Assembly: GCA_025922915.1 (NCBI GenBank)
Contig: JAICGY010000045.1
Span: 1-16,199 of the forward strand
Direction: 5' to 3'
Length of the DNA: 16,199 nucleotides
Source of the DNA: Candidatus Methylomirabilota bacterium
GTDB lineage: Bacteria; Methylomirabilota; Methylomirabilia; Rokubacteriales; CSP1-6
The notes beneath the pieces were generated by a model that ran no database searches, had not been told where the DNA came from, and saw only the letters and a program-made list of their open reading frames with translations. Positions 2,798 through 16,199 of the stretch are shown here, piece after piece (within the stretch, counting starts at the first letter, position 1; every line of letters begins with the position of its first letter). The translations under genes were made by a program, and so were the position numbers.

Positions 2798-5700
2798 ATG
2801 CGCTGTCCGTCCTGCCAGGCCGAGAATCGCCCCGGCGTGAAGTTCTGCGAGCAGTGCGGCGCCCGCCTGGAAGGCGTCTGCCCCTCGTGCGGCGCGCCGG
2901 TGCCGCCCTCGAGCCGGTTCTGCGGGGAGTGCGGCGCCCCGCTCGGCCCCGCCTCCCCGCCGCTGCCCCGGGCGGCGCCCGCGGCGGCCGGGCCGGCGCC
3001 GTTCACGTCGCCGCGGGCGTACACGCCGGCCCACCTCGTGGAGCGCATCCTCAAGGACGGCGCGGCGCTCGTCGGAGAGCGCAAGCAGGTCACCGTGCTG
3101 TTCGCCGACGTGTCGGGATTCACGTCGCTGTCGGAACGGCTCGATCCCGAGGACGTGCACGGGCTCATCAACCGGGCGTTCGAGCTCATGCTCGCCGAGA
3201 TCCACCGCTACGAGGGCACGGTCAACCAGTTCCTCGGCGACGGCCTCATGGCCCTCTTCGGCGCGCCCCTCGCGCACGAGGATCACGCGCAGCGGGCGGC
3301 GCTGGCCGCGCTCGGCATGCAGGGGGCGCTCGCCCGCTTCCGGCAGGAGCTGCAGCGTACGCGCGGCGTGGAGTTTTGCGTCCGCATGGGCCTCAACACG
3401 GGGCTCGTGGTCGTCGGCGCCATCGGCGACAACCTCCGCATGGACTACACGGCGGTCGGCGACACCACCAACATCGCGGCCCGGATGCAGCAGCTCGCCG
3501 AGCCGGGACAGATCGTGGTCGCCGAGGGCACGGAACGGCTCATCGCGCCGTACTTCGACCTGCGGGCCCTCGGCACCTTCACGGTCAGGAACCGGACGCA
3601 GCCGGTGGCGGGGTGGGAGCTGGGGCCCGCGCGCGCCGGGGTGTCGCGACTCGCCGCGCGCGCTGCCCACGGGCTGTCGCCGTTCGTCGGACGCGACGAT
3701 GCGCTGGCGGCGCTCGAGCGGGCGTGGAGCGCGGCCCGCGCCGGGCGCGGCCAGGCCGTGCTCGTGGTGGGCGATCCGGGAATCGGGAAGTCACGGCTGC
3801 TGCTGGAATTCCGCCGGCACGTCGGCGGCGCCGCCGTCTGGATCGAGGGCGACTGCATCTCCTTCGGCCAGTCGGTGCCCTTCCTACCGATCGCCGCGAT
3901 GCTGCGCGCCCACCTCGGCATCGACGATCAGGACGACGAGCGCGCCATCGTGGGCAAGATCGAGCGCGGCGTCGGCTTCCTCGGCGAGGACGCGACGCGC
4001 GTGACGCCGTACCTGAGGTTCCTGCTCTCCGTGGATCCCGGCGATCCGGCGATGGCCACCGTGGACCCGCTGTTGCGCCGCGAGCGCATCATCGCGGCCG
4101 TCCTCGGCCTGCTCGCGGCCTGGAGCCGTCAGCGGCCGCTCGTGCTCGTGGTCGAGGACGCGCACTGGATCGACAGCGCCTCCGAGGATGTGCTGAAGGC
4201 CTTCATGGAGAGCCTCCCCGGCCTGGCCATCCTGCTCGTCATCACCTACCGGCCCGTCTATCAGCAGCCCTTCGGCGATCGGACCTACTACTCGCGCATC
4301 GCCCTCCAGCCGGTGGACGAGGACGACGCGGGGCGGATCGTCCGCACGACCCTCGGGGTGTCGGATGTCCCGCGCGAGCTCGGCGTGGCGATCGCCTCGC
4401 GGGCCGAAGGCAACCCGTTCTTCCTCGAGGAGCTCGGGCGCTCCCTCGTGGAGAGCGGCGCCGTGCACGCGGAGAACGGCCGCCTCGTGCTCGCGCAGCC
4501 CGTGGCGACGCTCGCGGTGCCGGAGACCGTGCAGGACGTCATCGCCGCGCGCATCGACCGTCTCGACGAGCCACAGAAGCGGACCGTGCAGACCGCGTCG
4601 GTCATCGGCCGCGAGTTCGGGCTGACCCTCCTGCGGCGCGTGTCCGCACTCCGCGACCAGCTCGAGCGGAGCCTGCGCGAGCTGAAGCGCATCGAGCTGA
4701 TCTACGAGAAGGCCGGCTTCGGCGAGCCGGAATACGTCTTCCGCCACGCGCTCACCCAGGACGTGGCGTACGCGTCGCTGCTGCAGGCCGAGCGTCGCCG
4801 GCTGCACGGCGTGATCGGCCTGGCGATCGAGGACCTGTACGCCGGCCGCCTCGAGCCGCGGACGGAAGCGCTCGTCTACCACTTCACCCGGGGCGAGGTC
4901 TGGGACAAGGTCGTCCGCTACGCGCGCGACGCCGCCGAGCGCGCCGCCGCCCTGTGCGTCGACGACAAGGCGATCGAGCACTACCGGACCGCCCTCGTCG
5001 CGCTCGGTCATCTGCCCGAGACGGACGCCCACGGGCGCGCCGGCGTCGAGATCCGGCTCGCCATGCGCGCGCCGCTCTGGCGGGCCGGCCGACCGGAGGA
5101 GCTGCACGCGCTCTTCACCGAGGCGGAAACCCTGGCCACGCGCTGGGGATTCGCCGACCCGCTCGACACCATCTATGCCTTCCTCGTGCAGTATCACTGG
5201 GCGCGGGGCGAGCAGGACCGCGCCCTGGAGTACGGCGGACGCTGTCTCGAGCGCGCGGCCACGCGCGGCGATCTGGGCCTGCGCGTCACCGGCCTCTACT
5301 ACATGGCGCACGCCTGCCTGACCCTCGGGCGCTTCGCCGACGTCGTGCGCCACGCCGACGAGATGCTCGGCCGCCTCGCCGGACGCGAGGGCGAGCGCTT
5401 CGGCCTGTCCGGGTTGCCGGCCGCGGGCGTCTGCACCGACGCCGCGCAGGCGCTCCTGGCCGTGGGCGACACCGAGCGCGCGTGGCACTACGCGCGTCGG
5501 GCGCGGGCCATCGCCGACGCCGCCGGCCACGTCTACAGTCAGATGGTCGTGGCCCAGATGGACGGAGTGCTCCTCGCCGGCACCGGGCGCATCGACGAGG
5601 CGATCGCCACCCTGGAAGCCACCGCCGCGACCTGTCGGGAGAAGAACTTCGTGGGGCAGCTCATCAACGCGCTCCACGGGCTGGGCATCGCCTACGCCGA

Positions 5701-6052
5701 GGCCGGCCGTCCCGCGGACGCGGTGCGCGCCGCTCGGGAGTCGATCGAGCTGCAGGAGCGAGCGCGCGTCTCGGTGAACCGGGCCGACAAGCTGGCCACG
5801 CTGGTGGCCCCGTACGCGGCCCTGGGCGACTTCGAGCGCGCGGAGGCGACGCTTCGCGAGGCGCTCCGCTACGCGGAGCGGCAGGGCGAGCGTCCCGGGG
5901 CAGCGCTGGCCCTGCTCGCCGGAGCCCGGCTGGCGCTGCGTCGCGGAGATCGGCCGGAAGCCGAGCGCCGCCTCGACGCCGCGCGGACGATCGCGCGCGA
6001 GCTGGGGATGCGCCCGCTCCTCGAGCGCGCGGAGCGCTGGTTGGCCCCTTGA
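2798..6052 (+). CDS. Multidomain signalling protein: N-terminal double zinc ribbon, class III adenylate/guanylate cyclase (CHD) domain, STAND/AAA_16 (MalT/AfsR-like) P-loop NTPase, and C-terminal TPR-like alpha-helical repeats
   Basis: Residues 1-50 have four CxxC pairs (CPSCQ...CEQCG...CPSCG...CGECG). Residues ~96-275 carry cyclase motifs: VTVLFADVSGFT, FLGDGLMALFGAP, GLNTGLVVVGAIGD and GDTTNIAARMQ. Walker A is VLVVGDPGIGKSRLL at aa ~325-335, and Walker B is LVLVVEDAHWID. The long Ala/Leu/Arg-rich helical C-terminus resembles TPR-like repeats. No LuxR HTH is evident at the C-terminus. Confidence 0.85.
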   Translation: MRCPSCQAENRPGVKFCEQCGARLEGVCPSCGAPVPPSSRFCGECGAPLGPASPPLPRAAPAAAGPAPFTSPRAYTPAHLVERILKDGAALVGERKQVTVLFADVSGFTSLSERLDPEDVHGLINRAFELMLAEIHRYEGTVNQFLGDGLMALFGAPLAHEDHAQRAALAALGMQGALARFRQELQRTRGVEFCVRMGLNTGLVVVGAIGDNLRMDYTAVGDTTNIAARMQQLAEPGQIVVAEGTERLIAPYFDLRALGTFTVRNRTQPVAGWELGPARAGVSRLAARAAHGLSPFVGRDDALAALERAWSAARAGRGQAVLVVGDPGIGKSRLLLEFRRHVGGAAVWIEGDCISFGQSVPFLPIAAMLRAHLGIDDQDDERAIVGKIERGVGFLGEDATRVTPYLRFLLSVDPGDPAMATVDPLLRRERIIAAVLGLLAAWSRQRPLVLVVEDAHWIDSASEDVLKAFMESLPGLAILLVITYRPVYQQPFGDRTYYSRIALQPVDEDDAGRIVRTTLGVSDVPRELGVAIASRAEGNPFFLEELGRSLVESGAVHAENGRLVLAQPVATLAVPETVQDVIAARIDRLDEPQKRTVQTASVIGREFGLTLLRRVSALRDQLERSLRELKRIELIYEKAGFGEPEYVFRHALTQDVAYASLLQAERRRLHGVIGLAIEDLYAGRLEPRTEALVYHFTRGEVWDKVVRYARDAAERAAALCVDDKAIEHYRTALVALGHLPETDAHGRAGVEIRLAMRAPLWRAGRPEELHALFTEAETLATRWGFADPLDTIYAFLVQYHWARGEQDRALEYGGRCLERAATRGDLGLRVTGLYYMAHACLTLGRFADVVRHADEMLGRLAGREGERFGLSGLPAAGVCTDAAQALLAVGDTERAWHYARRARAIADAAGHVYSQMVVAQMDGVLLAGTGRIDEAIATLEATAATCREKNFVGQLINALHGLGIAYAEAGRPADAVRAARESIELQERARVSVNRADKLATLVAPYAALGDFERAEATLREALRYAERQGERPGAALALLAGARLALRRGDRPEAERRLDAARTIARELGMRPLLERAERWLAP

Positions 6053-11469: not shown

Positions 11470-12945
11470 TCAGCTGAGGTCGTAGCCCGGCGGGCGGCGG
11501 AAGCCGCCGATCTCGCCCCCGAGCAGCGCGGCGAAGCGGATCGGCGTCAGGTCCTCCAGGTACGGGCCGATCGCCTGCAGGCCGATCGGGAGGCCCTCGG
11601 GCGAGAGCCCGACGGGGAACGCCGTCGCGGGCTGGCCGGCCACGGTGGACACGGCCGGGTACACGAGGCCGTGCAGGTAGGGCACGGCCCGCCCGCCGAC
11701 CGTGAAGGTCAGCGTCAGGTCGCTGTCGTCCTGCGGCCAGGCGCGCTCCACGTGCGGGTAGGCGAGCACGTTGATCGCCGGGGCGAGCAGCACGTCCCAG
11801 TCGCCGAAGAAGGCGCGCCAGGCCGCGCGGTACTGCTCCCGCCGGCCGTTCCAGAGGATGTAGTCGCCCGGCGCCCCCTCGAGCCCGCGCAGGTGCGCAC
11901 GGGAGAAGTCGTCGTCGTGCTTGCGCCACATGGCGAGGCGCTGCCGGCGCGTGTCCTCGTCGACGCGCGCGCTCGTCACCGCGGACAGCAGCGCGCGGTA
12001 GAGGGCGTGGTGCTCGCGGTGGTCGCCGAGCGGCTCGGGCTGGGCCTCGCCGACGGTGCAGCCGAGGCGGCCGAGCCACGACGCGACGTCCTGCAGGGCC
12101 GCCGTGATGCGGTCGTCCACGGTCAGCCACGGGATCGCGGGCAGCACGGCCACCCGGAAGTCGGCGAGCCGGTCGTGGCGCGCGGGCGGCAGCTCGACGC
12201 GCCAGGCCACGTCCTCGCCCGTGTCGGGGCCGGCCAGGACCGACAGCGCCAGCGCCAGGTCCTCGGCGCTGCGCGCCAGCGGGCCCTGCACGCCCATCAC
12301 CACGGCGGCGTTGGGCAGCGGCGGCATCGGGAACTGGCCGCTGCGCGGCAGCAGCGTCTCGCTCGGACGGTGGCCGTACACGCCGCAGAACGCCGCGGGG
12401 ACGCGGATCGAGCCTCCGATGTCCGAGCCCACCTCGAGGGCCGTGAGCCCGGCCGCCAGCGCCGCCGCGCCGCCGCCGCTGCTGCCACCCGGGGTGCGCG
12501 TCACGTCCCACGGGTTGCTCGACCGGCCGTGGACCGGGTTGGCGGACTGCCAGTCCGCGAGCATGGGCGGCACGTTCGTCTTGCCCATCAGCACCGCGCC
12601 GGCCGCCCGCGTGCGCGCCGCGGCGGGCGCGTCGTGCTGCGAGACGAACCCTCTCCACTCGGGGACGCCGCACGTCGTGGCGAGCCCCGCGACGTTGATG
12701 GACTCCTTGAGCGTGATCGGCAGCCCCAGCAGCGGACCGCGCTCGCCGCGGGCGGCCGCCTGGTCCGCCGCGCGCGCCTGGTGGCGCGCACGCTCGAAGT
12801 CCCGCACGACGACGGCGTTCAGGCGCCCGTCGTGCCGCTCGATGCGCCGGACGTAGAGGTCGGTCAGCTCGGTCGAGCTGATCTTGCCGGCGCGCAGGGC
12901 GGCCAGCAGCTCGGTGGCACTCGCGAAGGGATCGATGTCAACCAT
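11470..12945 (-). CDS. Amidase-signature (AS) family amidase, GatA-like
   Basis: The AS signature is GGSSGGGAAALAAGLTALEVGSDIGGSIRVPAAFCGVYG, with the catalytic Ser-cisSer-Lys context. The ATG is at complement 12943-12945, preceded by AAGGAG. The TGA stop at 11470-11472 lies 17 nt from the downstream GTG start. Confidence 0.9.
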   Translation of the reverse strand: MVDIDPFASATELLAALRAGKISSTELTDLYVRRIERHDGRLNAVVVRDFERARHQARAADQAAARGERGPLLGLPITLKESINVAGLATTCGVPEWRGFVSQHDAPAAARTRAAGAVLMGKTNVPPMLADWQSANPVHGRSSNPWDVTRTPGGSSGGGAAALAAGLTALEVGSDIGGSIRVPAAFCGVYGHRPSETLLPRSGQFPMPPLPNAAVVMGVQGPLARSAEDLALALSVLAGPDTGEDVAWRVELPPARHDRLADFRVAVLPAIPWLTVDDRITAALQDVASWLGRLGCTVGEAQPEPLGDHREHHALYRALLSAVTSARVDEDTRRQRLAMWRKHDDDFSRAHLRGLEGAPGDYILWNGRREQYRAAWRAFFGDWDVLLAPAINVLAYPHVERAWPQDDSDLTLTFTVGGRAVPYLHGLVYPAVSTVAGQPATAFPVGLSPEGLPIGLQAIGPYLEDLTPIRFAALLGGEIGGFRRPPGYDLS

Positions 12946-12979: not shown

Positions 12980-14584
12980 CTACTGCGCCCGGCGCCGGTC
13001 GAGGACGGTCGCCCAGTCCAGGCCGAAGCGCGCGAGGTACTTGCGCAGGCGATCGGCGTCGTTCGCGGTGGTCCGGCGCTGGCGGGAGACGGCGAAGAGC
13101 GTGCGGCCGGCGGCCGAGAGGCTGGCGGCCGAGGCGCACACGCGCAGCACCTCGGCGAGCTGCGCGCGGTCGAACCGGTCGAGGGTCTCGATGCGCCCGG
13201 GCCCGAGAAAGCGCCGCAGCGTGGCCTCCGCCTCGTCCGCGGTGGCGGGGGCCCAGAGAGCCCTGAGCCGGGCGATCTCGTCCTCGACCACCGCGGTGGT
13301 CACCCGCCCGCCGGCGGCCAGCGTGGCCATGCGCACCACCGCCGCGTTGAAGTCCCGGAAGTTGGCGGGCCAGCTCGCCTCCGCCGAGGCGGCGAACGTC
13401 AGGAACGCGGCCCGAGCCTCCCGGTTGAACGTCACCCGGGTGCCGTGGCGGGCCGCCCACTGATCCAGCTCGTAGTCGAGGTTCGGCTCCAGGTCCTCGA
13501 CGCGCTCGCGCAGTCCCGGCAGGTGGAAGGTCCACAGGTTGATGCGGGCGAGCAGGTCGTCGCGGAACCGTCCGTGGCGGACGGCCTGTCCGAGGTCGCG
13601 GTTCGTGCCGGCGATGAGCTGGAAGTCGCTGCGCACCTCGCGGTCCGACCCGACGGGCAGGAAGATCTTGTCCTCCAGCGCGCGCAGGAGCATGGCCTGC
13701 TCGTCGGGGCCGAGCTCCCCGATCTCGTCGAGGAACAGGACGCCCCTGTCGGCCGTGCGCAGGAGACCCGGGCGGGGCTGGAGCGCGCCCGTGAACGCGC
13801 CGCGCACGTGGCCGAAGAGCGCCGACATGGCCGCGTCGCCCCGGATGGTGGCGCAGTTCACCTCGACGAACGGCCCCTCGACCTGGCGGCGGGCCTTCTT
13901 CAGCTCGTAGACGCGGCGGGCCAGCTGCGACTTGCCGGCGCCCGTGGGCCCGGTGAGGAGCAGGGGCGCCGTGGAGGCGATGGCAACCTGCTCGATTCGC
14001 TCGATGAGCCGGTTGAACCCGGCGTTGCGGGTGTCGATCCCCGATTTCAGGAACGAGAGCCCCTCGCGCTGCTGCCGCTGGAAGCGGGAGGCCAGGCGGT
14101 CGTACTTCGACAGGTCCAGGTCGATGATCGTGCAGCTGCCCGGCCCGCCGTCGCTGCGCCGCCGCGGCGGCGAGGCCTGCAGGAGCCGGCCGGGGATGTC
14201 CCGCGACTCGGTCAGCAGGAAGAGACAGATCTGGACGACGTGCGTGCCCGTCGTGACGTGGACGAGGTAGCTCTCCTCCTCCGGGCGGAAGGGGTAGCCG
14301 CGGGCGAAGTCGTGGAGCGCGCCGTACACCTGCTCGAAGTCCCACGGGTCGGCGAGTGCCAGCTCGTGCAGCCGGACCTCGGTCTCCGGGGACACCGTGC
14401 GGATGTCGCCCACGATCTCCTCGGCGAGGCGCCGGAACCGCGGCTGGCTGAGGAGCTCGAAGCGGCGGACCAGCAGGTCCTCGTGACGGCACAGGTCGAC
14501 CGTCGGCCGCCACTGGCGCCAGCGGTCGGGGCCGCCGCGATCGAGGGTGCTGCCGAGCATGCCGATCACCACGTTGTCCGGCAT
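12980..14584 (-). CDS. rtcR: RtcR, the sigma-54-dependent transcriptional activator of the RNA repair (rtc) operon: N-terminal CARF-like domain, central AAA+ bEBP domain, C-terminal HTH
   Basis: It matches the remembered E. coli RtcR along its full length. The N-terminus is MPDNVVIGMLGSTLDRGGPDRWRQWRPTV. Other shared segments are PWDFEQVYGALHDFARGYPF, Walker A LLLTGPTGAGKS, the bEBP hallmark GAFTGA (HVRGAFTGA), FLDEIGELGPDEQAMLLRALE, and the C-terminal DADRLRKYLARFGL. The ATG is at complement 14582-14584. Confidence 0.9.
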   Translation of the reverse strand: MPDNVVIGMLGSTLDRGGPDRWRQWRPTVDLCRHEDLLVRRFELLSQPRFRRLAEEIVGDIRTVSPETEVRLHELALADPWDFEQVYGALHDFARGYPFRPEEESYLVHVTTGTHVVQICLFLLTESRDIPGRLLQASPPRRRSDGGPGSCTIIDLDLSKYDRLASRFQRQQREGLSFLKSGIDTRNAGFNRLIERIEQVAIASTAPLLLTGPTGAGKSQLARRVYELKKARRQVEGPFVEVNCATIRGDAAMSALFGHVRGAFTGALQPRPGLLRTADRGVLFLDEIGELGPDEQAMLLRALEDKIFLPVGSDREVRSDFQLIAGTNRDLGQAVRHGRFRDDLLARINLWTFHLPGLRERVEDLEPNLDYELDQWAARHGTRVTFNREARAAFLTFAASAEASWPANFRDFNAAVVRMATLAAGGRVTTAVVEDEIARLRALWAPATADEAEATLRRFLGPGRIETLDRFDRAQLAEVLRVCASAASLSAAGRTLFAVSRQRRTTANDADRLRKYLARFGLDWATVLDRRRAQ

Positions 14585-14711
14585 TGCCGTAGATGATCGT
14601 CTAATACACTAGCCGATGCTATACGAAAATCTGCGGGGTCGAGCAGCCGGCACCGAGGCCTATCGTCAATGAAACCGGATCGTTGCGGCTCACCACGGGC
14701 GGCTCTCGGAC

Positions 14712-14728
14712 CTGGCCCGCTGCGTGCC
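14712..14728 (+). promoter_or_regulatory. Candidate sigma-54 (-24/-12) promoter CTGGCCCGCTGCGTGCC directing transcription toward the SPFH-rtcB genes
   Basis: GG at 14714-14715 and GC at 14726-14727 are separated by exactly 10 nt. The -24 element TGGCCC matches the TGGCAC consensus at 5 of 6 positions, and the -12 element GTGC matches TTGC at 3 of 4. It lies in the divergent intergenic region next to rtcR, as expected for an RtcR target. The predicted start is near 14738-14740. Confidence 0.45.
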
Positions 14729-14746
14729 TTGCTCACCGTCCGTCGA

Positions 14747-14781
14747 CGGGGGCCACGGTGGAAGCGCGGCCGTGGCCCCCG
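14747..14781 (+). promoter_or_regulatory. Perfect 12-bp GC-rich hairpin (CGGGGGCCACGG / CCGTGGCCCCCG, 11-nt loop) at the predicted 5' end of the sigma-54 transcript
   Basis: The inverted repeat was read directly: 14747-14758 pairs with 14770-14781. It lies about 10 nt downstream of the predicted transcription start. Confidence 0.4.
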
Positions 14782-14822
14782 GGGACGGGAGGAGCGAGCA
14801 ACGCCAATGGAGCGGCAGGCCA

Positions 14823-14909
14823 GGTGGCGGATCCGGCGTGCCGGGTTCGCATGACCGATTGGGCCGTCGCGTGGTGAGGCAAGGGGTTCGAATCCCCACC
14901 GCCTCCACC
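14823..14909 (+). ncRNA. tRNA-like structured element (candidate Y-RNA/YrlA-like tRNA mimic or degenerate tRNA/tmRNA-like module). It has a canonical T-arm AGGGG-TTCGAAT-CCCCA, closed by an 8-bp terminal helix GGTGGCGG / CCGCCTCC with one U-U mismatch, then ACC.
   Basis: GGTTCGAATCC at 14885-14895 is the tRNA T-stem/T-loop consensus. The 3' tail CCGCCTCCACC resembles the CUCCACCA 3' end of tRNA-Ala and tmRNA acceptors. 14823-14830 pairs with 14899-14906. No regular D-arm or anticodon arm could be folded by eye, so a canonical tRNA is unlikely. The minus-strand reading gives the wrong T-loop polarity. Confidence 0.4.
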
Positions 14910-14961
14910 CGCCTGGCGCCGGAGGGGACCGTCCCTTCCCCGGCCGCCTGGCCCTGAAGAG

Positions 14962-14981
14962 GCCCGGCCTTTCCGCCGGGC
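14962..14981 (+). terminator. GC hairpin (GCCCGGC-CTTTCC-GCCGGGC, 7-bp stem) downstream of the tRNA-like element and upstream of the SPFH gene; possible attenuator, processing or termination signal. A second hairpin lies at 14921-14939 (GGAGGGG-ACCGT-CCCTTCC).
   Basis: The inverted repeats were read directly. There is no U-tract. They sit between the candidate ncRNA and the ATG at 15029. Confidence 0.3.
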
Positions 14982-15028
14982 GCCGGGCCCAGCCGGGTGG
15001 AGGTCCTGACTCGAGCGAGGAGCGAGCG

Positions 15029-15817
15029 ATGACATTGCCGGGGGCGCTGACGATGGCGGTGGCAACCGCGCTGGTCCTGCTGGTCGCGCGCCGCTGGCTG
15101 GTGGAGCGGGTCGTGGTGTACGAGTATCAGCGCGCGGTGCTCTACCGCCGCGGGCGGCGGCTCCGGACGCTCGGCCCGGGCGTCTACTGGCTCGTGCGCG
15201 GGGTGTCGGCGGTGGCGACCGTCGACGCGCGCTCGCGCGTGGCGGTCGTGGCCGGGCAGGAGATCCTGTCGGCGGACAGCGTCCCGTTGCGCCTCAGCGT
15301 CACGCTCCGCTACCGGGTGACGCGCCCGGAATTGGCGATCGAGGTCGCGGCCTCGTTCGCGGACACGCTGCACGCCGAGACGCAGCTGGCGCTGCGGGAT
15401 CTGGTGGCGGCGGTGACCGCCGAGGAGCTGCTGCCCCAGCGGGCGCGCCTGGCCGGAGGCCTGCACGCCGCGCTGGCGCCGCGGGCCGCGGCCCTGGGCC
15501 TGGAGCTGGAGGAGGCCGGCGTGCGCGACGTCACGTTCCCGGCGCCGCTCAAGCAGCTCTTCGCCCAGGTCGTGGAGGCGCGCCAGGCCGCGCAGGCGGC
15601 GCTGGAGAAGGCGCGGGGCGAGACGGCCGTGCTGCGCCACCTCGCGAATGCCGCCCGGCTGCTGGAGAGCAATCCGGCACTGGTCACGCTGCGCACGCTG
15701 GACGCGGCGGCGGCGAGCCGGGGCGCCATCGTGCTGGCGCTGCCGTCCCCGCTCCTGCCCGGGCCGGGGGGAGGCGTTGCCGGCCGGCCGCCGGGGCCGG
15801 AGTCGATCGGTGGATGA
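15029..15817 (+). CDS. SPFH/band-7 (stomatin/prohibitin/flotillin/HflKC) family membrane protein with one N-terminal transmembrane helix
   Basis: The N-terminal hydrophobic helix is AVATALVLLVA. The SPFH core includes VVVYEYQRAVLYRRGRRLRTLGPGVYWLVRG, ILSADSVPLRLSVTLRYRVTRPELAI and QLALRDLVAAVTAEELL. The coiled Ala/Gln-rich C-terminus (QAAQAALEKARGE) is typical of stomatin-like proteins. GAGGAG lies 6 nt upstream of the ATG. The TGA stop at 15815-15817 is 13 nt before the rtcB ATG. Confidence 0.85.
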   Translation: MTLPGALTMAVATALVLLVARRWLVERVVVYEYQRAVLYRRGRRLRTLGPGVYWLVRGVSAVATVDARSRVAVVAGQEILSADSVPLRLSVTLRYRVTRPELAIEVAASFADTLHAETQLALRDLVAAVTAEELLPQRARLAGGLHAALAPRAAALGLELEEAGVRDVTFPAPLKQLFAQVVEARQAAQAALEKARGETAVLRHLANAARLLESNPALVTLRTLDAAAASRGAIVLALPSPLLPGPGGGVAGRPPGPESIGG

Positions 15818-15830
15818 AAGCGAGGGCGTG

Positions 15831-16199
15831 ATGACGAGCGAGCGGACGTACGACGTGATCACGGGCGACGGCGCGGTCCCGATCAAGGCGTGGACCCGCG
15901 GCGTGCCGGTCGAGGCCGAGGCGACGACGCAGCTGCTGAACGTCGCCCGGCTGCCCTTCATCCACCGCTGGGTGGCGGCGATGCCTGACGTGCACTGGGG
16001 GATCGGCGCCACGGTCGGGAGCGTCATCCCGACCGTGGGCGCCGTCATCCCGGCCGCGGTCGGCGTCGACATCGGGTGCGGGATGATGGCGGTGCAGACG
16101 ACGCTCACGGCGAGCGACCTGCCGGAGAGCCTGCGCGAGGTGCGCACGGCGATCGAGCGCGCCGTGCCGCACGGTCGCGCGCCGCGGGGCCGCGATCAC
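15831..16199 (+). CDS. rtcB: RNA-splicing ligase RtcB (3'-phosphate/5'-hydroxyl RNA ligase), N-terminal 123 codons; 3' partial at the window end
   Basis: The translation MTSERTYDVITGDGAVPIKAWTRGVPVEAEATTQLLNVARLPFIHRWVAAMPDVHWGIGATVGSVIPTVGAVIPAAVGVDIGCGMMAV aligns almost residue-for-residue with the E. coli RtcB N-terminus (KMWTKGVPVEADARQQL...MPDVHLGKGSTIGSVIPTKGAIIPAAVGVDIGCGM). This ORF is absent from the supplied track because it runs off the window. Confidence 0.9.
   Translation, partial: MTSERTYDVITGDGAVPIKAWTRGVPVEAEATTQLLNVARLPFIHRWVAAMPDVHWGIGATVGSVIPTVGAVIPAAVGVDIGCGMMAVQTTLTASDLPESLREVRTAIERAVPHGRAPRGRDH

What the first reader, a model, noticed from the sequence alone, without database searches (positions are those of the whole stretch)
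12980..16199. Rtc RNA-repair locus with non-canonical cargo: rtcR, then sigma-54 promoter, structured tRNA-like leader, SPFH/band-7 membrane protein, rtcB
In E. coli the RtcR-controlled sigma-54 promoter drives rtcBA directly, and in Salmonella it drives rsr-yrlBA-rtcBA. Here rtcR (with CARF-like N-terminus, GAFTGA motif and HTH) is divergent from a 444-bp non-coding region followed by an SPFH/stomatin-like membrane protein. That protein's stop lies 13 nt before rtcB, so the two are almost certainly co-transcribed. No rsr (Ro60) gene occupies the slot. As far as I know an SPFH scaffold protein is not a standard partner of RtcB. It could indicate a membrane-associated or stress/phage-triggered branch of the RNA-repair response, by analogy with SPFH proteins in membrane stress and conflict systems. 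The rtcR CARF-like domain also links this to cyclic-nucleotide or RNA-fragment sensing. The partner and context, not the rtc genes themselves, are what may be undescribed.
Basis: partly seen in the sequence, partly recalled or inferred. Interest (0 to 1): 0.75.

Follow-up and report, generated by a model that had tools for sequence, protein, structure and literature searches.

The report
Rtc RNA-repair operon carrying SPFH–RNA module
This is a real RtcR/sigma-54-controlled RNA-repair operon that also carries a membrane SPFH protein and its own structured leader RNA, but this partnership was already predicted in 2016 and the same gene arrangement has been noted in Pseudomonas aeruginosa, so this locus is another example, not a new kind of system.

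Summary
The window has rtcR (12980-14584, -), a 444-bp non-coding region with a sigma-54 -24/-12 promoter, an SPFH/Band-7 gene (15029-15817) and, 13 nt later, the start of rtcB. The closest relative (Methylomirabilota, L001) continues into full-length rtcB and rtcA.

The claim that the partner is undescribed does not hold. Burroughs & Aravind (2016), as cited in bioRxiv 10.1101/312249, predicted RtcB next to a Band-7 protein plus a 'band 7-associated tRNA'. A 2026 paper notes an SPFH gene (PaFlo8) inside the P. aeruginosa rtc locus.

The conserved unit is the RNA plus the SPFH gene, not SPFH plus rtcB. Of 80 species-level SPFH loci, 78 have a covarying structured RNA directly upstream, and only about 7 have rtc genes within 6 kb. 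Those 7 fall in at least 3 separate SPFH clades. Searching by an RNA motif, 46 of 50 usable metagenome contigs have SPFH immediately downstream.

The RNA is a roughly 200-nt two-domain leader with one tRNA-type T-arm. It is not a cloverleaf and is not in Rfam 15. The window carries a divergent variant, placed under RtcR control in place of the module's own -10 promoter.

Function is still untested. The best guess is a Ro60/Y-RNA-like scaffold-plus-RNA cofactor.

The parts
12980..14584 (-). rtcR: sigma-54-dependent activator with a CARF-like N-terminal domain, an AAA+ domain (GAFTGA motif) and a C-terminal DNA-binding region
   Evidence: Pfam RtcR 5.8e-81 plus Sigma54_activat 7e-48. NCBIfam RNA_repair_RtcR equivalog 820 bits, cut-off 650. 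PADLOC RtcR--CARF_AAA_HTH 1.8e-254.
14585..14712 (.). Divergent control region between rtcR and the promoter. The RtcR enhancer sites are presumed to lie here but were not mapped.
   Evidence: Position only. Poorly conserved in the three-way alignment. Inferred.
14713..14727 (+). Sigma-54 -24/-12 promoter, TGGCCCGCTGCGTGC. The inferred transcription start is near 14739.
   Evidence: GG-N10-GC frame read from the sequence. Conserved in L001 (GGCACGCCCCGTGC) and L002 (GGCACGGCTCGTGC). No sigma-70-type promoter in the region.
14740..14788 (+). 5'-terminal hairpin of the transcript (core GGGGGCCACGG ... CCGTGGCCCCC). Specific to the Rtc-embedded Methylomirabilota loci.
   Evidence: Conserved in window, L001 and L002, with one compensatory C-G to U-A change in L002. 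Part of the minimum-free-energy fold.
14813..14912 (+). Leader RNA domain 1: closing stems P1/P2, long hairpin P3, then the T-arm-like hairpin GGGG-UUCGAAU-CCCC (14883-14897)
   Evidence: Covariance model R1 was built from 35 loci of other phyla, without this lineage. It hits here full-length at 34.2 bits, E about 3e-7, with the next best window hit at 8.8 bits. R1 hits 59/80 SPFH loci, always just upstream of the gene. Covariation counts.
14899..15003 (+). Leader RNA domain 2, a divergent variant. A long closing helix (CCUCCACCCG 14902-14911 with CGGGUGGAGG 14994-15003, and the GGCGCC pair) encloses two hairpins. The second has the frame GGCCCUGAAGAGGCC..GGCCUUUCCGCC.
   Evidence: In other phyla this domain has 30 predicted pairs, 29 with compensatory changes, and model R2 hits 78/80 loci. 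R2 does NOT score the window above noise. The assignment here rests on the shared architecture in the fold and on conservation with L001/L002.
15017..15022 (+). Shine-Dalgarno-like GAGGAG, 6 nt before the SPFH start codon
   Evidence: Read from the sequence.
15029..15817 (+). SPFH/Band-7 (slipin-like) protein, 262 aa, with a hydrophobic N-terminal segment that is a probable membrane anchor
   Evidence: Pfam Band_7 2.6e-28. 316 homologues at E<=1e-5. HflK models hit far below cut-off (47 vs 159 bits). No PADLOC hit.
15831..16199 (+). rtcB RNA ligase, first 123 codons. The gene runs off the window.
   Evidence: Pfam RtcB 4.8e-31. 91% identical to the N-terminus of the 407-aa RtcB of L001, which is followed there by rtcA (RTC 1.1e-77).

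Best explanation
The locus is an RtcR/sigma-54-controlled RNA-repair operon. It has taken in a widespread two-part module: a roughly 200-nt structured RNA with a tRNA-type T-arm, followed directly by an SPFH/Band-7 membrane protein. This is the 'Band-7 plus b7a-tRNA' module predicted by Burroughs & Aravind in 2016.

Proposed working:
1. RNA damage activates RtcR. In Salmonella the signal is tRNA fragments ending in 2',3'-cyclic phosphate.
2. RtcR opens the sigma-54 promoter at 14713-14727.
3. One transcript is made. It carries a 5' hairpin, the structured RNA, the SPFH gene, rtcB and, beyond the window, rtcA.
4. The RNA is the SPFH protein's own partner. Either it stays as the leader of the SPFH message or it is cut out, as YrlA/YrlB are cut out of the Salmonella rsr-yrlBA-rtcBA transcript.
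5. Together with the oligomeric, membrane-anchored SPFH scaffold it forms an RNA-protein particle that assists or localises RtcB/RtcA repair. This is analogous to Ro60 with Y RNA.

Shown here: the gene identities, the promoter motif, the homology and covariation of the RNA, the near-obligate RNA-SPFH pairing, and the recurrent but minority link to rtc genes.

Inferred: co-transcription, RNA-protein binding, processing of the RNA, and any role in repair.
For: - Gene identities.
- Promoter conserved in three loci, no other promoter or terminator.
- The RNA belongs to a family found upstream of SPFH genes in many phyla. R1 hits the window at 34.2 bits and hits 59/80 loci. R2 hits 78/80 loci, always on the same strand and directly upstream, with no hit elsewhere in 848 kb.
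- Covariation: 29 of 30 pairs in domain 2; P3 and the T-arm in domain 1.
- Searching by RNA motif: 46 of 50 usable metagenome contigs have SPFH immediately downstream.
- No other conserved protein neighbour.
- rtc genes lie within 6 kb in 7/80 loci, in three or more gene orders and at least 3 SPFH clades.
- Stand-alone modules have a -10 box at -15 to -9 from the RNA start (a -10 box within 30 nt upstream in 40/59 loci vs 13.5% of control positions). Six of the 7 Rtc-linked loci lack it. This fits the module having been placed under RtcR control.
- In Anaeromyxobacter (L016, L057) the RNA sits between rtcA and SPFH, so it travels with SPFH and not with the operon's 5' end.
- Literature: b7a-tRNA/Band-7/RtcB, and the reported swaps with Rsr/YrlA (bioRxiv 10.1101/312249); PaFlo8 in the P. 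aeruginosa rtc locus (PMC13086221).
Against: - No experiment shows that the RNA exists as a stable species or binds SPFH. The 2018 preprint says b7a-tRNA was unvalidated.
- The RNA always lies at a fixed short distance from the SPFH start codon (median 103 nt from the end of domain 1; the closing helix ends roughly 15-35 nt before the ATG). It begins at the transcript start. This is the usual signature of a cis-acting leader.
- About 90% of modules have no rtc gene nearby, so RNA repair may not be the module's core job.
- Deleting paFlo8 in P. aeruginosa gave no phenotype in growth, motility, biofilm, virulence-factor or oxidative-stress assays. Rtc-inducing stress was not tested.
- The window's domain 2 is not recognised by model R2.
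- I could not read the 2016 paper. Identity of my RNA with their b7a-tRNA rests on position and on the T-arm.
Confidence: 0.6

Rival explanations
1. The RNA is a cis-acting regulatory leader (riboswitch-like, or a sensor of tRNA or RNA ends). It controls translation or stability of the SPFH message and, in this locus, of rtcB downstream. It is not a trans-acting protein cofactor. Under this view the SPFH protein is the regulated output and the RNA is the sensor.
For: - The RNA is always on the same strand and directly upstream of the SPFH start, with near-constant spacing.
- It starts at the transcript start in stand-alone loci (-10 box at -15 to -9).
- No terminator separates RNA and ORF in the window.
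- The size, the GNRA-capped hairpin and the T-loop-type elements resemble ligand- or RNA-binding leaders.
- The 5' strand of P1/P2 can also pair with the tail after the T-arm (76.7% vs 68.3% of cells paired). That leaves room for a conformational switch.
Against: - No expression platform was found: no terminator, and no consistent sequestering of the ribosome-binding site.
- The alternative pairing is weaker and has few compensatory changes.
- No Rfam riboswitch family matches.
- The literature reports b7a-tRNA next to Rsr, and YrlA next to Band-7 genes. That argues for a separable, trans-acting RNA. I could not verify this here.
Confidence: 0.28
2. The SPFH-RNA module is an unrelated membrane-maintenance unit that landed by chance next to rtc genes in a few lineages. 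It has no functional link to RNA repair.
For: - 73 of 80 loci have no rtc gene within 6 kb.
- None of the metagenome loci found by the RNA motif has an rtc gene nearby (one carries only a distant, partial RtcR-like AAA+ match about 10 kb away), though most contigs are short.
- No phenotype for delta-paFlo8 in general assays.
Against: - Seven independent-looking co-localisations in five phylum-level groups and several gene orders, against my rough expectation of about 0.1 by chance.
- In the window and in L001/L002 the module's own -10 promoter is replaced by the RtcR/sigma-54 promoter, and the SPFH stop is 13 nt from rtcB.
- In Anaeromyxobacter the module follows rtcA by about 30 nt.
Confidence: 0.08
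3. The locus is an anti-phage or conflict system in which the SPFH protein is a membrane effector or sensor triggered by infection.
For: - RtcR has a CARF-type domain and matches PADLOC RtcR models.
- From my own knowledge, RNA repair is discussed as a counter to RNA-targeting toxins.
Against: - The SPFH protein matches no PADLOC model.
- No relatives in 2.9 million viral contigs.
- The three viral motif hits are about the number I estimate chance alone would give, and none has an SPFH gene.
- The neighbours in the window are ordinary metabolic genes, with no mobile-element or defence genes.
Confidence: 0.04

Closest known systems
Band-7 (SPFH) plus b7a-tRNA module associated with RtcB (Burroughs & Aravind 2016, Nucleic Acids Res 44:8525; known to me through bioRxiv 10.1101/312249 and from memory of the abstract)
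   Same: - A Band-7/SPFH protein encoded next to RtcB, with a predicted tRNA-like ncRNA beside it.
- The RNA here has a canonical T-arm (GGGGUUCGAAUCCCC) and sits between rtcR and the SPFH gene.
   Different: - By my analysis the RNA is not cloverleaf-like. It is a two-domain leader of roughly 200 nt, and only the T-arm is tRNA-like.
- An acceptor-type closing helix has weaker support than P1/P2.
- The window, L001 and L002 carry a divergent domain 2.
- I could not read the original paper, so the boundaries of their b7a-tRNA are unknown to me.
Pseudomonas aeruginosa rtc locus with PaFlo8 (PA14_60630) (PMC13086221, 2026)
   Same: An SPFH gene embedded among rtcR, rtcB and rtcA in a cultured model bacterium.
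   Different: - That paper does not mention an associated RNA.
- I could not fetch the Pseudomonas sequence to test models R1/R2 on it.
- The window comes from an uncultured, high-GC Methylomirabilota-like organism.
Salmonella rsr-yrlBA-rtcBA operon (Ro60 orthologue Rsr plus Y RNAs YrlA/YrlB)
   Same: - An RtcR/sigma-54-driven operon in which a scaffold protein and its structured ncRNA, with a tRNA-like part, are encoded upstream of rtcB.
- The ncRNAs are part of the operon transcript.
   Different: - The scaffold here is an SPFH protein, not a TROVE/Ro60 ring.
- No Y-RNA family of Rfam matches.
- The RNA precedes its protein gene instead of following it.
E. coli rtcR / rtcBA
   Same: A divergent rtcR, a sigma-54 promoter, and rtcB followed by rtcA (rtcA seen in the relative L001).
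   Different: E. coli has a short leader and no scaffold gene or structured RNA between the promoter and rtcB.
Stomatin/slipin and HflK/C SPFH proteins
   Same: The Band_7 domain, an N-terminal hydrophobic anchor, and a conserved helical region after the domain.
   Different: - No NfeD partner and no FtsH link.
- HflK equivalog models hit far below cut-off.
- This subfamily is defined by the RNA upstream of its gene.

Membership tests
Rtc RNA-repair operon (RtcR-sigma54-RtcB/RtcA) | RtcR activator with a CARF-like domain, an AAA+ sigma-54 interaction domain and GAFTGA | tested here: met
   Pfam. NCBIfam equivalog 820 bits, above the 650 cut-off. GAFTGA seen in the translation.
Rtc RNA-repair operon (RtcR-sigma54-RtcB/RtcA) | Sigma-54 -24/-12 promoter divergent from rtcR | tested here: met
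   TGGCCCGCTGCGTGC at 14713-14727, with the frame conserved in L001 and L002. Transcription from it was not tested.
Rtc RNA-repair operon (RtcR-sigma54-RtcB/RtcA) | Full-length RtcB ligase | tested here: inconclusive
   Only 123 codons lie in the window (RtcB 4.8e-31). The 91%-identical orthologue in L001 is 407 aa and matches the full-length RtcB model.
Rtc RNA-repair operon (RtcR-sigma54-RtcB/RtcA) | RtcA cyclase in the operon | not testable with these tools
   It would lie beyond the window end. It is present right after rtcB in L001, L002, L016 and L057.
Band-7 / b7a-tRNA module | Band_7 (SPFH) domain protein | tested here: met
   PF01145, 2.6e-28.
Band-7 / b7a-tRNA module | Conserved structured RNA next to the Band-7 gene | tested here: met
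   R1 hits the window at 14813-14912 with 34.2 bits. The family is present in 59/80 (R1) and 78/80 (R2) loci.
Band-7 / b7a-tRNA module | RNA 'strongly resembles an authentic tRNA' (cloverleaf) | tested here: inconclusive
   The T-arm is canonical. However, ARAGORN finds no tRNA in the window and none at the leader position upstream of the SPFH gene in any of the 80 loci. The acceptor-like helix has weaker support than P1/P2. No cloverleaf appears in folds of the window, L001 or L002. The original definition could not be read.
Band-7 / b7a-tRNA module | Adjacency to an RNA ligase (RtcB) | tested here: met
   rtcB starts 13 nt after the SPFH stop.
Ro60 (Rsr) / Y RNA module | TROVE-domain protein and a Y RNA | tested here: not met
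   The only ORF between rtcR and rtcB is the SPFH protein. No Rfam Y-RNA match.
tRNA / tmRNA gene | Detected by ARAGORN or by the Rfam tRNA/tmRNA models at gathering score | tested here: not met
   ARAGORN finds 0 genes. The tmRNA model scores 15.7 bits against a gathering score of 47 and matches the acceptor and T-arm ends only.
Known riboswitch or cis-regulatory RNA families (Rfam 15) | Match to a curated family at gathering score | tested here: not met
   No match in the window. None at the leader position in the 13 loci searched (the only hit, a cobalamin riboswitch in L004, lies elsewhere).
HflK/HflC FtsH modulators | Score above the NCBIfam equivalog cut-off | tested here: not met
   47 bits against a cut-off of 159.
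Anti-phage defence systems (PADLOC) | SPFH protein matches a defence-system model | tested here: not met
   0 families.

The most novel reading that the evidence does not exclude
The so-called b7a-tRNA may not be a tRNA mimic. It may be a large, two-domain structured RNA of roughly 200 nt that has never been curated. It has a T-loop hairpin, a GNRA-capped hairpin, a conserved UUNAGA-capped stem and a 17-bp closing helix. It forms the obligate 5' leader of one SPFH subfamily in many bacterial phyla. It could act as a sensor or switch, for example for tRNA elbows or damaged RNA ends, that controls or loads the SPFH scaffold. Under this reading the Rtc-embedded lineages, including this window, have remodelled domain 2 and swapped the module's own promoter for RtcR control. 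That would define a new RNA class with a protein partner of a kind not known to bind RNA.
Probability: 0.3. Interest if true: 0.65.

Novelty: new member of a known kind. Interest (0 to 1): 0.33.

Why it matters
The locus adds no new kind of system, because the RtcB/Band-7/tRNA-like-RNA association has been in the literature since 2016. It does point to a module that is still uncharacterised by experiment. An SPFH membrane scaffold is almost always preceded by the same covarying structured RNA, across Acidobacteriota, Planctomycetota, Chloroflexota, Gemmatimonadota, Myxococcota, Melainabacteria and other phyla. That RNA has no Rfam family.

If the RNA and the protein form a particle, it would be an RNA-protein complex anchored at the membrane. 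It would also be a second, independent solution, beside Ro60/Y RNA, for assisting RNA repair. The P. aeruginosa rtc locus (PaFlo8) is a tractable place to test this.

Tried and rejected
- **tRNA or tmRNA gene in the leader.** Rejected. ARAGORN finds nothing, and the Rfam tmRNA model is far below its gathering score.
- **Cloverleaf closed by an acceptor-type helix.** It has weaker pairing and fewer compensatory changes than the P1/P2 alternative (vs 30, 38). It is not homologous between the window and the main family, and it is absent in L002 (my reading; folds).
- **Thermodynamic evidence for structure in the window.** Not significant for the RNA domains. The z = -4.15 is probably driven largely by the strong 5' hairpin.
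- **Model R2 on the window.** No hit above noise. Domain 2 is assigned only by architecture.
- **Other conserved protein neighbours of the SPFH gene.** None apart from the Rtc proteins. The greedy ORF calling is crude in high-GC loci.
- **Phage or defence link.** No SPFH relatives in viral contigs. The three motif matches there are local, about chance level by my estimate, and lack an SPFH gene. No PADLOC hit.
- **Reading Burroughs & Aravind 2016.** Not held in the library under its DOI or PMC id.
- **Hughes et al. 2020.** It does not mention Band-7.
- **First sigma-54 pattern search.** It used a spacer one base too long and so missed the real site. The site was then read directly from the sequence and checked by alignment.

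Full report
**1. Observation**

- rtcR lies at 12980-14584 on the minus strand (534 aa). It matches the Pfam RtcR N-terminal domain (5.8e-81) and the sigma-54 interaction domain (7e-48). It scores 820 bits against the NCBIfam RtcR equivalog, whose cut-off is 650.
- The gap to the next gene, 14585-15028, is exactly 444 bp.
- The ORF at 15029-15817 (262 aa) is an SPFH/Band_7 protein (2.6e-28).
- Thirteen nucleotides after its stop, an ATG at 15831 opens an RtcB reading frame (4.8e-31 over the 123 codons available).
- A GG-N10-GC sigma-54 element, TGGCCCGCTGCGTGC, lies at 14713-14727. Its frame is conserved in the two closest loci.
- No sigma-70-type promoter or intrinsic terminator is found between 14500 and 16199.
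- ARAGORN finds no tRNA, and no Rfam 15 family reaches its gathering score. With permissive thresholds the tmRNA model aligns only its acceptor and T-arm ends to 14835-14910, at 15.7 bits against a gathering score of 47. 'tRNA-like' is therefore justified for the T-arm GGGGUUCGAAUCCCC (14883-14897) and not for the whole leader.

**2. Relatives and the end of the operon**

The SPFH protein has hundreds of homologues, mostly from metagenomes. A scan of one genome per species returned 80 loci. The closest are from Candidatus Methylomirabilota: L001 at 74% identity and L002 at 57%.

In L001 the order is rtcR, divergent leader, SPFH, a 407-aa RtcB, then a 340-aa RtcA. The RtcB matches the full-length Pfam model at 2.8e-130, and the RtcA matches RTC at 1.1e-77. 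The window's reading frame therefore almost certainly continues into a full rtcB followed by rtcA. This cannot be shown from the window itself.

**3. What the conserved unit is**

By tblastn, only 7 of the 80 loci have rtcR, rtcB or rtcA within 6 kb:

- L001 and L002 have the same order as the window.
- L016 and L057 (Anaeromyxobacter) have rtcR, then divergently rtcB-rtcA-SPFH.
- L011 (Omnitrophota), L059 (Acidobacteriota) and L070 (Pedosphaera) have other arrangements.

I expect roughly 0.1 such co-localisations by chance, taking a 12-kb neighbourhood in a genome of about 4 Mb and rtcB present in under half of genomes. This figure is my own estimate, not a tool result. On a neighbour-joining tree the Rtc-linked SPFH proteins fall into at least three separate clades (no bootstrap). 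The linkage is real and recurrent, but it is the exception.

No other protein neighbour is conserved.

What is conserved is the DNA just upstream of the SPFH gene. A T-loop motif lies 100-240 nt upstream on the same strand in about 70 of the 80 loci.

**4. The RNA**

I built covariance model R1 from 35 loci of other phyla, leaving out the window, L001 and L002. Its structure is two closing stems (P1 GGGAG:CUCCC, and P2), a long hairpin P3 with an AUC loop, and the T-arm hairpin.

- R1 finds the window at 14813-14912, full length, at 34.2 bits with E about 3e-7. The next best hit in the window scores 8.8 bits.
- R1 hits 59 of the 80 loci at E<=0.01. Every hit is on the SPFH strand and directly upstream of the gene, and there is no hit elsewhere in 848 kb.
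- Covariation is strong for P3 and the T-arm and moderate for P1/P2 (80.9% of cells paired against 66.8% in shuffles; 22 of 26 pairs with changes on both sides).
- An alternative helix would close a tRNA-like cloverleaf by pairing the 5' end with the tail after the T-arm. It pairs less well (68.3% against 76.7%) and has few compensatory changes.

The roughly 100 nt between the end of R1 and the start codon are also conserved. RNAalifold on 45 loci predicts 30 pairs, 29 of them with compensatory changes. The elements are:

- a closing helix of about 17 bp between the post-T-arm tail and a segment just before the ribosome-binding site;
- a short hairpin that is GNRA-capped in many loci;
- a variable, covarying stem capped by the nearly invariant CYUGCRGG-UUNAGA-CCYCCGC.

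Model R2, built for this domain, hits 78 of the 80 loci, again only directly upstream of SPFH.

As an RNA-first test I searched metagenome contigs for the 20-nt cap motif. Of the 56 contigs found, 50 have more than 250 nt of sequence downstream. In 46 of these an SPFH gene follows immediately, and one more (L127) has only a partial match further downstream. None has an rtc gene nearby (one carries only a distant, partial RtcR-like AAA+ match about 10 kb away), although most contigs are short.

In stand-alone loci a -10 box (TAnnnT) lies within 30 nt upstream of the RNA start in 40 of 59 loci, mostly at -15 to -9, against 13.5% at control positions. An extended TGnTAnnnT is present in 14 of 59 loci, against 0.7% of controls. 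The RNA is therefore the 5' leader of the SPFH transcript.

None of the 13 loci tested, nor the window, matches an Rfam 15 family at this position.

**5. The window's version**

The window, L001 and L002 carry a divergent form of the RNA. Domain 1 is recognised by R1. Domain 2 is not recognised by R2. The fold and the three-way alignment nevertheless show the same plan:

- a long closing helix (CCUCCACCCG 14902-14911 with CGGGUGGAGG 14994-15003);
- two inner hairpins;
- the frame GGCCCUG.AG...CCGCC, with the UUNAGA hexaloop hairpin replaced by a longer stem. That stem is capped by UCCG in L001 and UUCG in L002.

These three loci lack the module's own -10 box. They have instead the sigma-54 promoter and an extra hairpin at the inferred transcript start (14740-14788). 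That hairpin is conserved, with one compensatory change in L002.

The module thus appears to have been placed under RtcR control. In Anaeromyxobacter the RNA sits between rtcA and SPFH, about 30 nt after the rtcA stop. So the RNA travels with the SPFH gene and not with the operon's 5' end.

**6. What is known**

The preprint on the YrlA structure (bioRxiv 10.1101/312249) describes the earlier work. [quoted passage not shown] It also says that b7a-tRNA is occasionally found next to Rsr and YrlA next to Band-7 proteins, and that the RNA had not been validated. It cites Burroughs & Aravind 2016 for this. I could not obtain the 2016 paper itself.

A 2026 study of P. aeruginosa SPFH proteins notes that PA14_60630 (PaFlo8) is embedded in the rtc locus. 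Its deletion had no phenotype in general assays, and Rtc-inducing stress was not tested (PMC13086221).

The gene-level reading was correct.

**7. Mechanism**

The best-supported account is as follows. RtcR senses RNA damage; this part is established for Salmonella (PMC7790460, PMC10159003). RtcR activates the sigma-54 promoter, and one transcript carries the 5' hairpin, the structured RNA, SPFH, rtcB and rtcA. The RNA is the cognate partner of the SPFH scaffold. By analogy with Ro60 and Y RNA in the Salmonella operon, the pair would assist or localise repair by RtcB/RtcA.

The gene identities, promoter motif, RNA homology and covariation, the RNA-SPFH coupling and the recurrent rtc linkage are shown here. 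Co-transcription, RNA-protein binding, processing of the RNA and any role in repair are inferred.

The main rival is that the RNA is a cis-acting leader or sensor for SPFH expression. The fixed position and the start at the transcript 5' end favour this. The lack of any recognisable expression platform and the reported partner swaps argue against it.

A chance hitch-hiking explanation and a phage-defence explanation are both weakly supported.

**8. Verdict**

This is an ordinary member of a published but experimentally untested kind of locus. The residual interest lies in the RNA. It is a large, strongly covarying, uncurated leader tied to one SPFH subfamily, and its structure as derived here is not a tRNA cloverleaf.

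Noticed in passing
window 14740-14788 (+): A strong hairpin (GGGGGCCACGG...CCGTGGCCCCC, extended by CCGUC/GACGG) sits at the inferred sigma-54 transcription start. It is conserved in L001 and L002, with a compensatory C-G to U-A change in L002. It is absent from stand-alone SPFH-RNA modules. It could be a 5'-end stabiliser or a processing signal.
   Followed up: partly
window 2798-6052 (+): A large 1084-aa protein with a double zinc ribbon, an adenylate/guanylate cyclase domain, an AAA_16 ATPase domain and TPR repeats. It is unrelated to the finding.
   Followed up: no
window 11470-12945 (-): An amidase gene starts 34 nt downstream of the rtcR stop on the same strand, so it may be co-transcribed with rtcR.
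   Followed up: no
L011:4186-5702: In the Omnitrophota locus the RtcB-like sequence is split over two ORFs (215 and 253 aa) just upstream of the RNA-SPFH-rtcA block. The cause could be a frameshift, a pseudogene or an assembly error.
   Followed up: no
L103 (motif at 13725-13744, -) and L094 (372-391, +): Two metagenome contigs carry the 20-nt domain-2 cap motif but have no SPFH gene downstream, despite enough sequence. They could be chance matches or rare RNA-only copies.
   Followed up: no
L003, L005, L009, L012, L021-L023, L028, L038-L040, L043, L065, L073 (Acidobacteriota and allied loci): A subtype of domain 1 is preceded by GATATAA. It has no P4 hairpin, and the T-arm follows P1 directly. 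It scores weakly or not at all with R1 but normally with R2.
   Followed up: partly
L004:3617-3836 (+): A cobalamin riboswitch (62 bits) lies about 2 kb downstream of the SPFH gene in a Planctomycetales contig. It is unrelated.
   Followed up: no
L082:3166-3190, L083:2-26, L081:7487-7505 (viral contigs): Exact matches to the 19-nt cap motif occur in three IMG/VR contigs, without the rest of the RNA and without an SPFH gene. I estimate that chance alone would give about this many matches in a collection of this size.
   Followed up: yes
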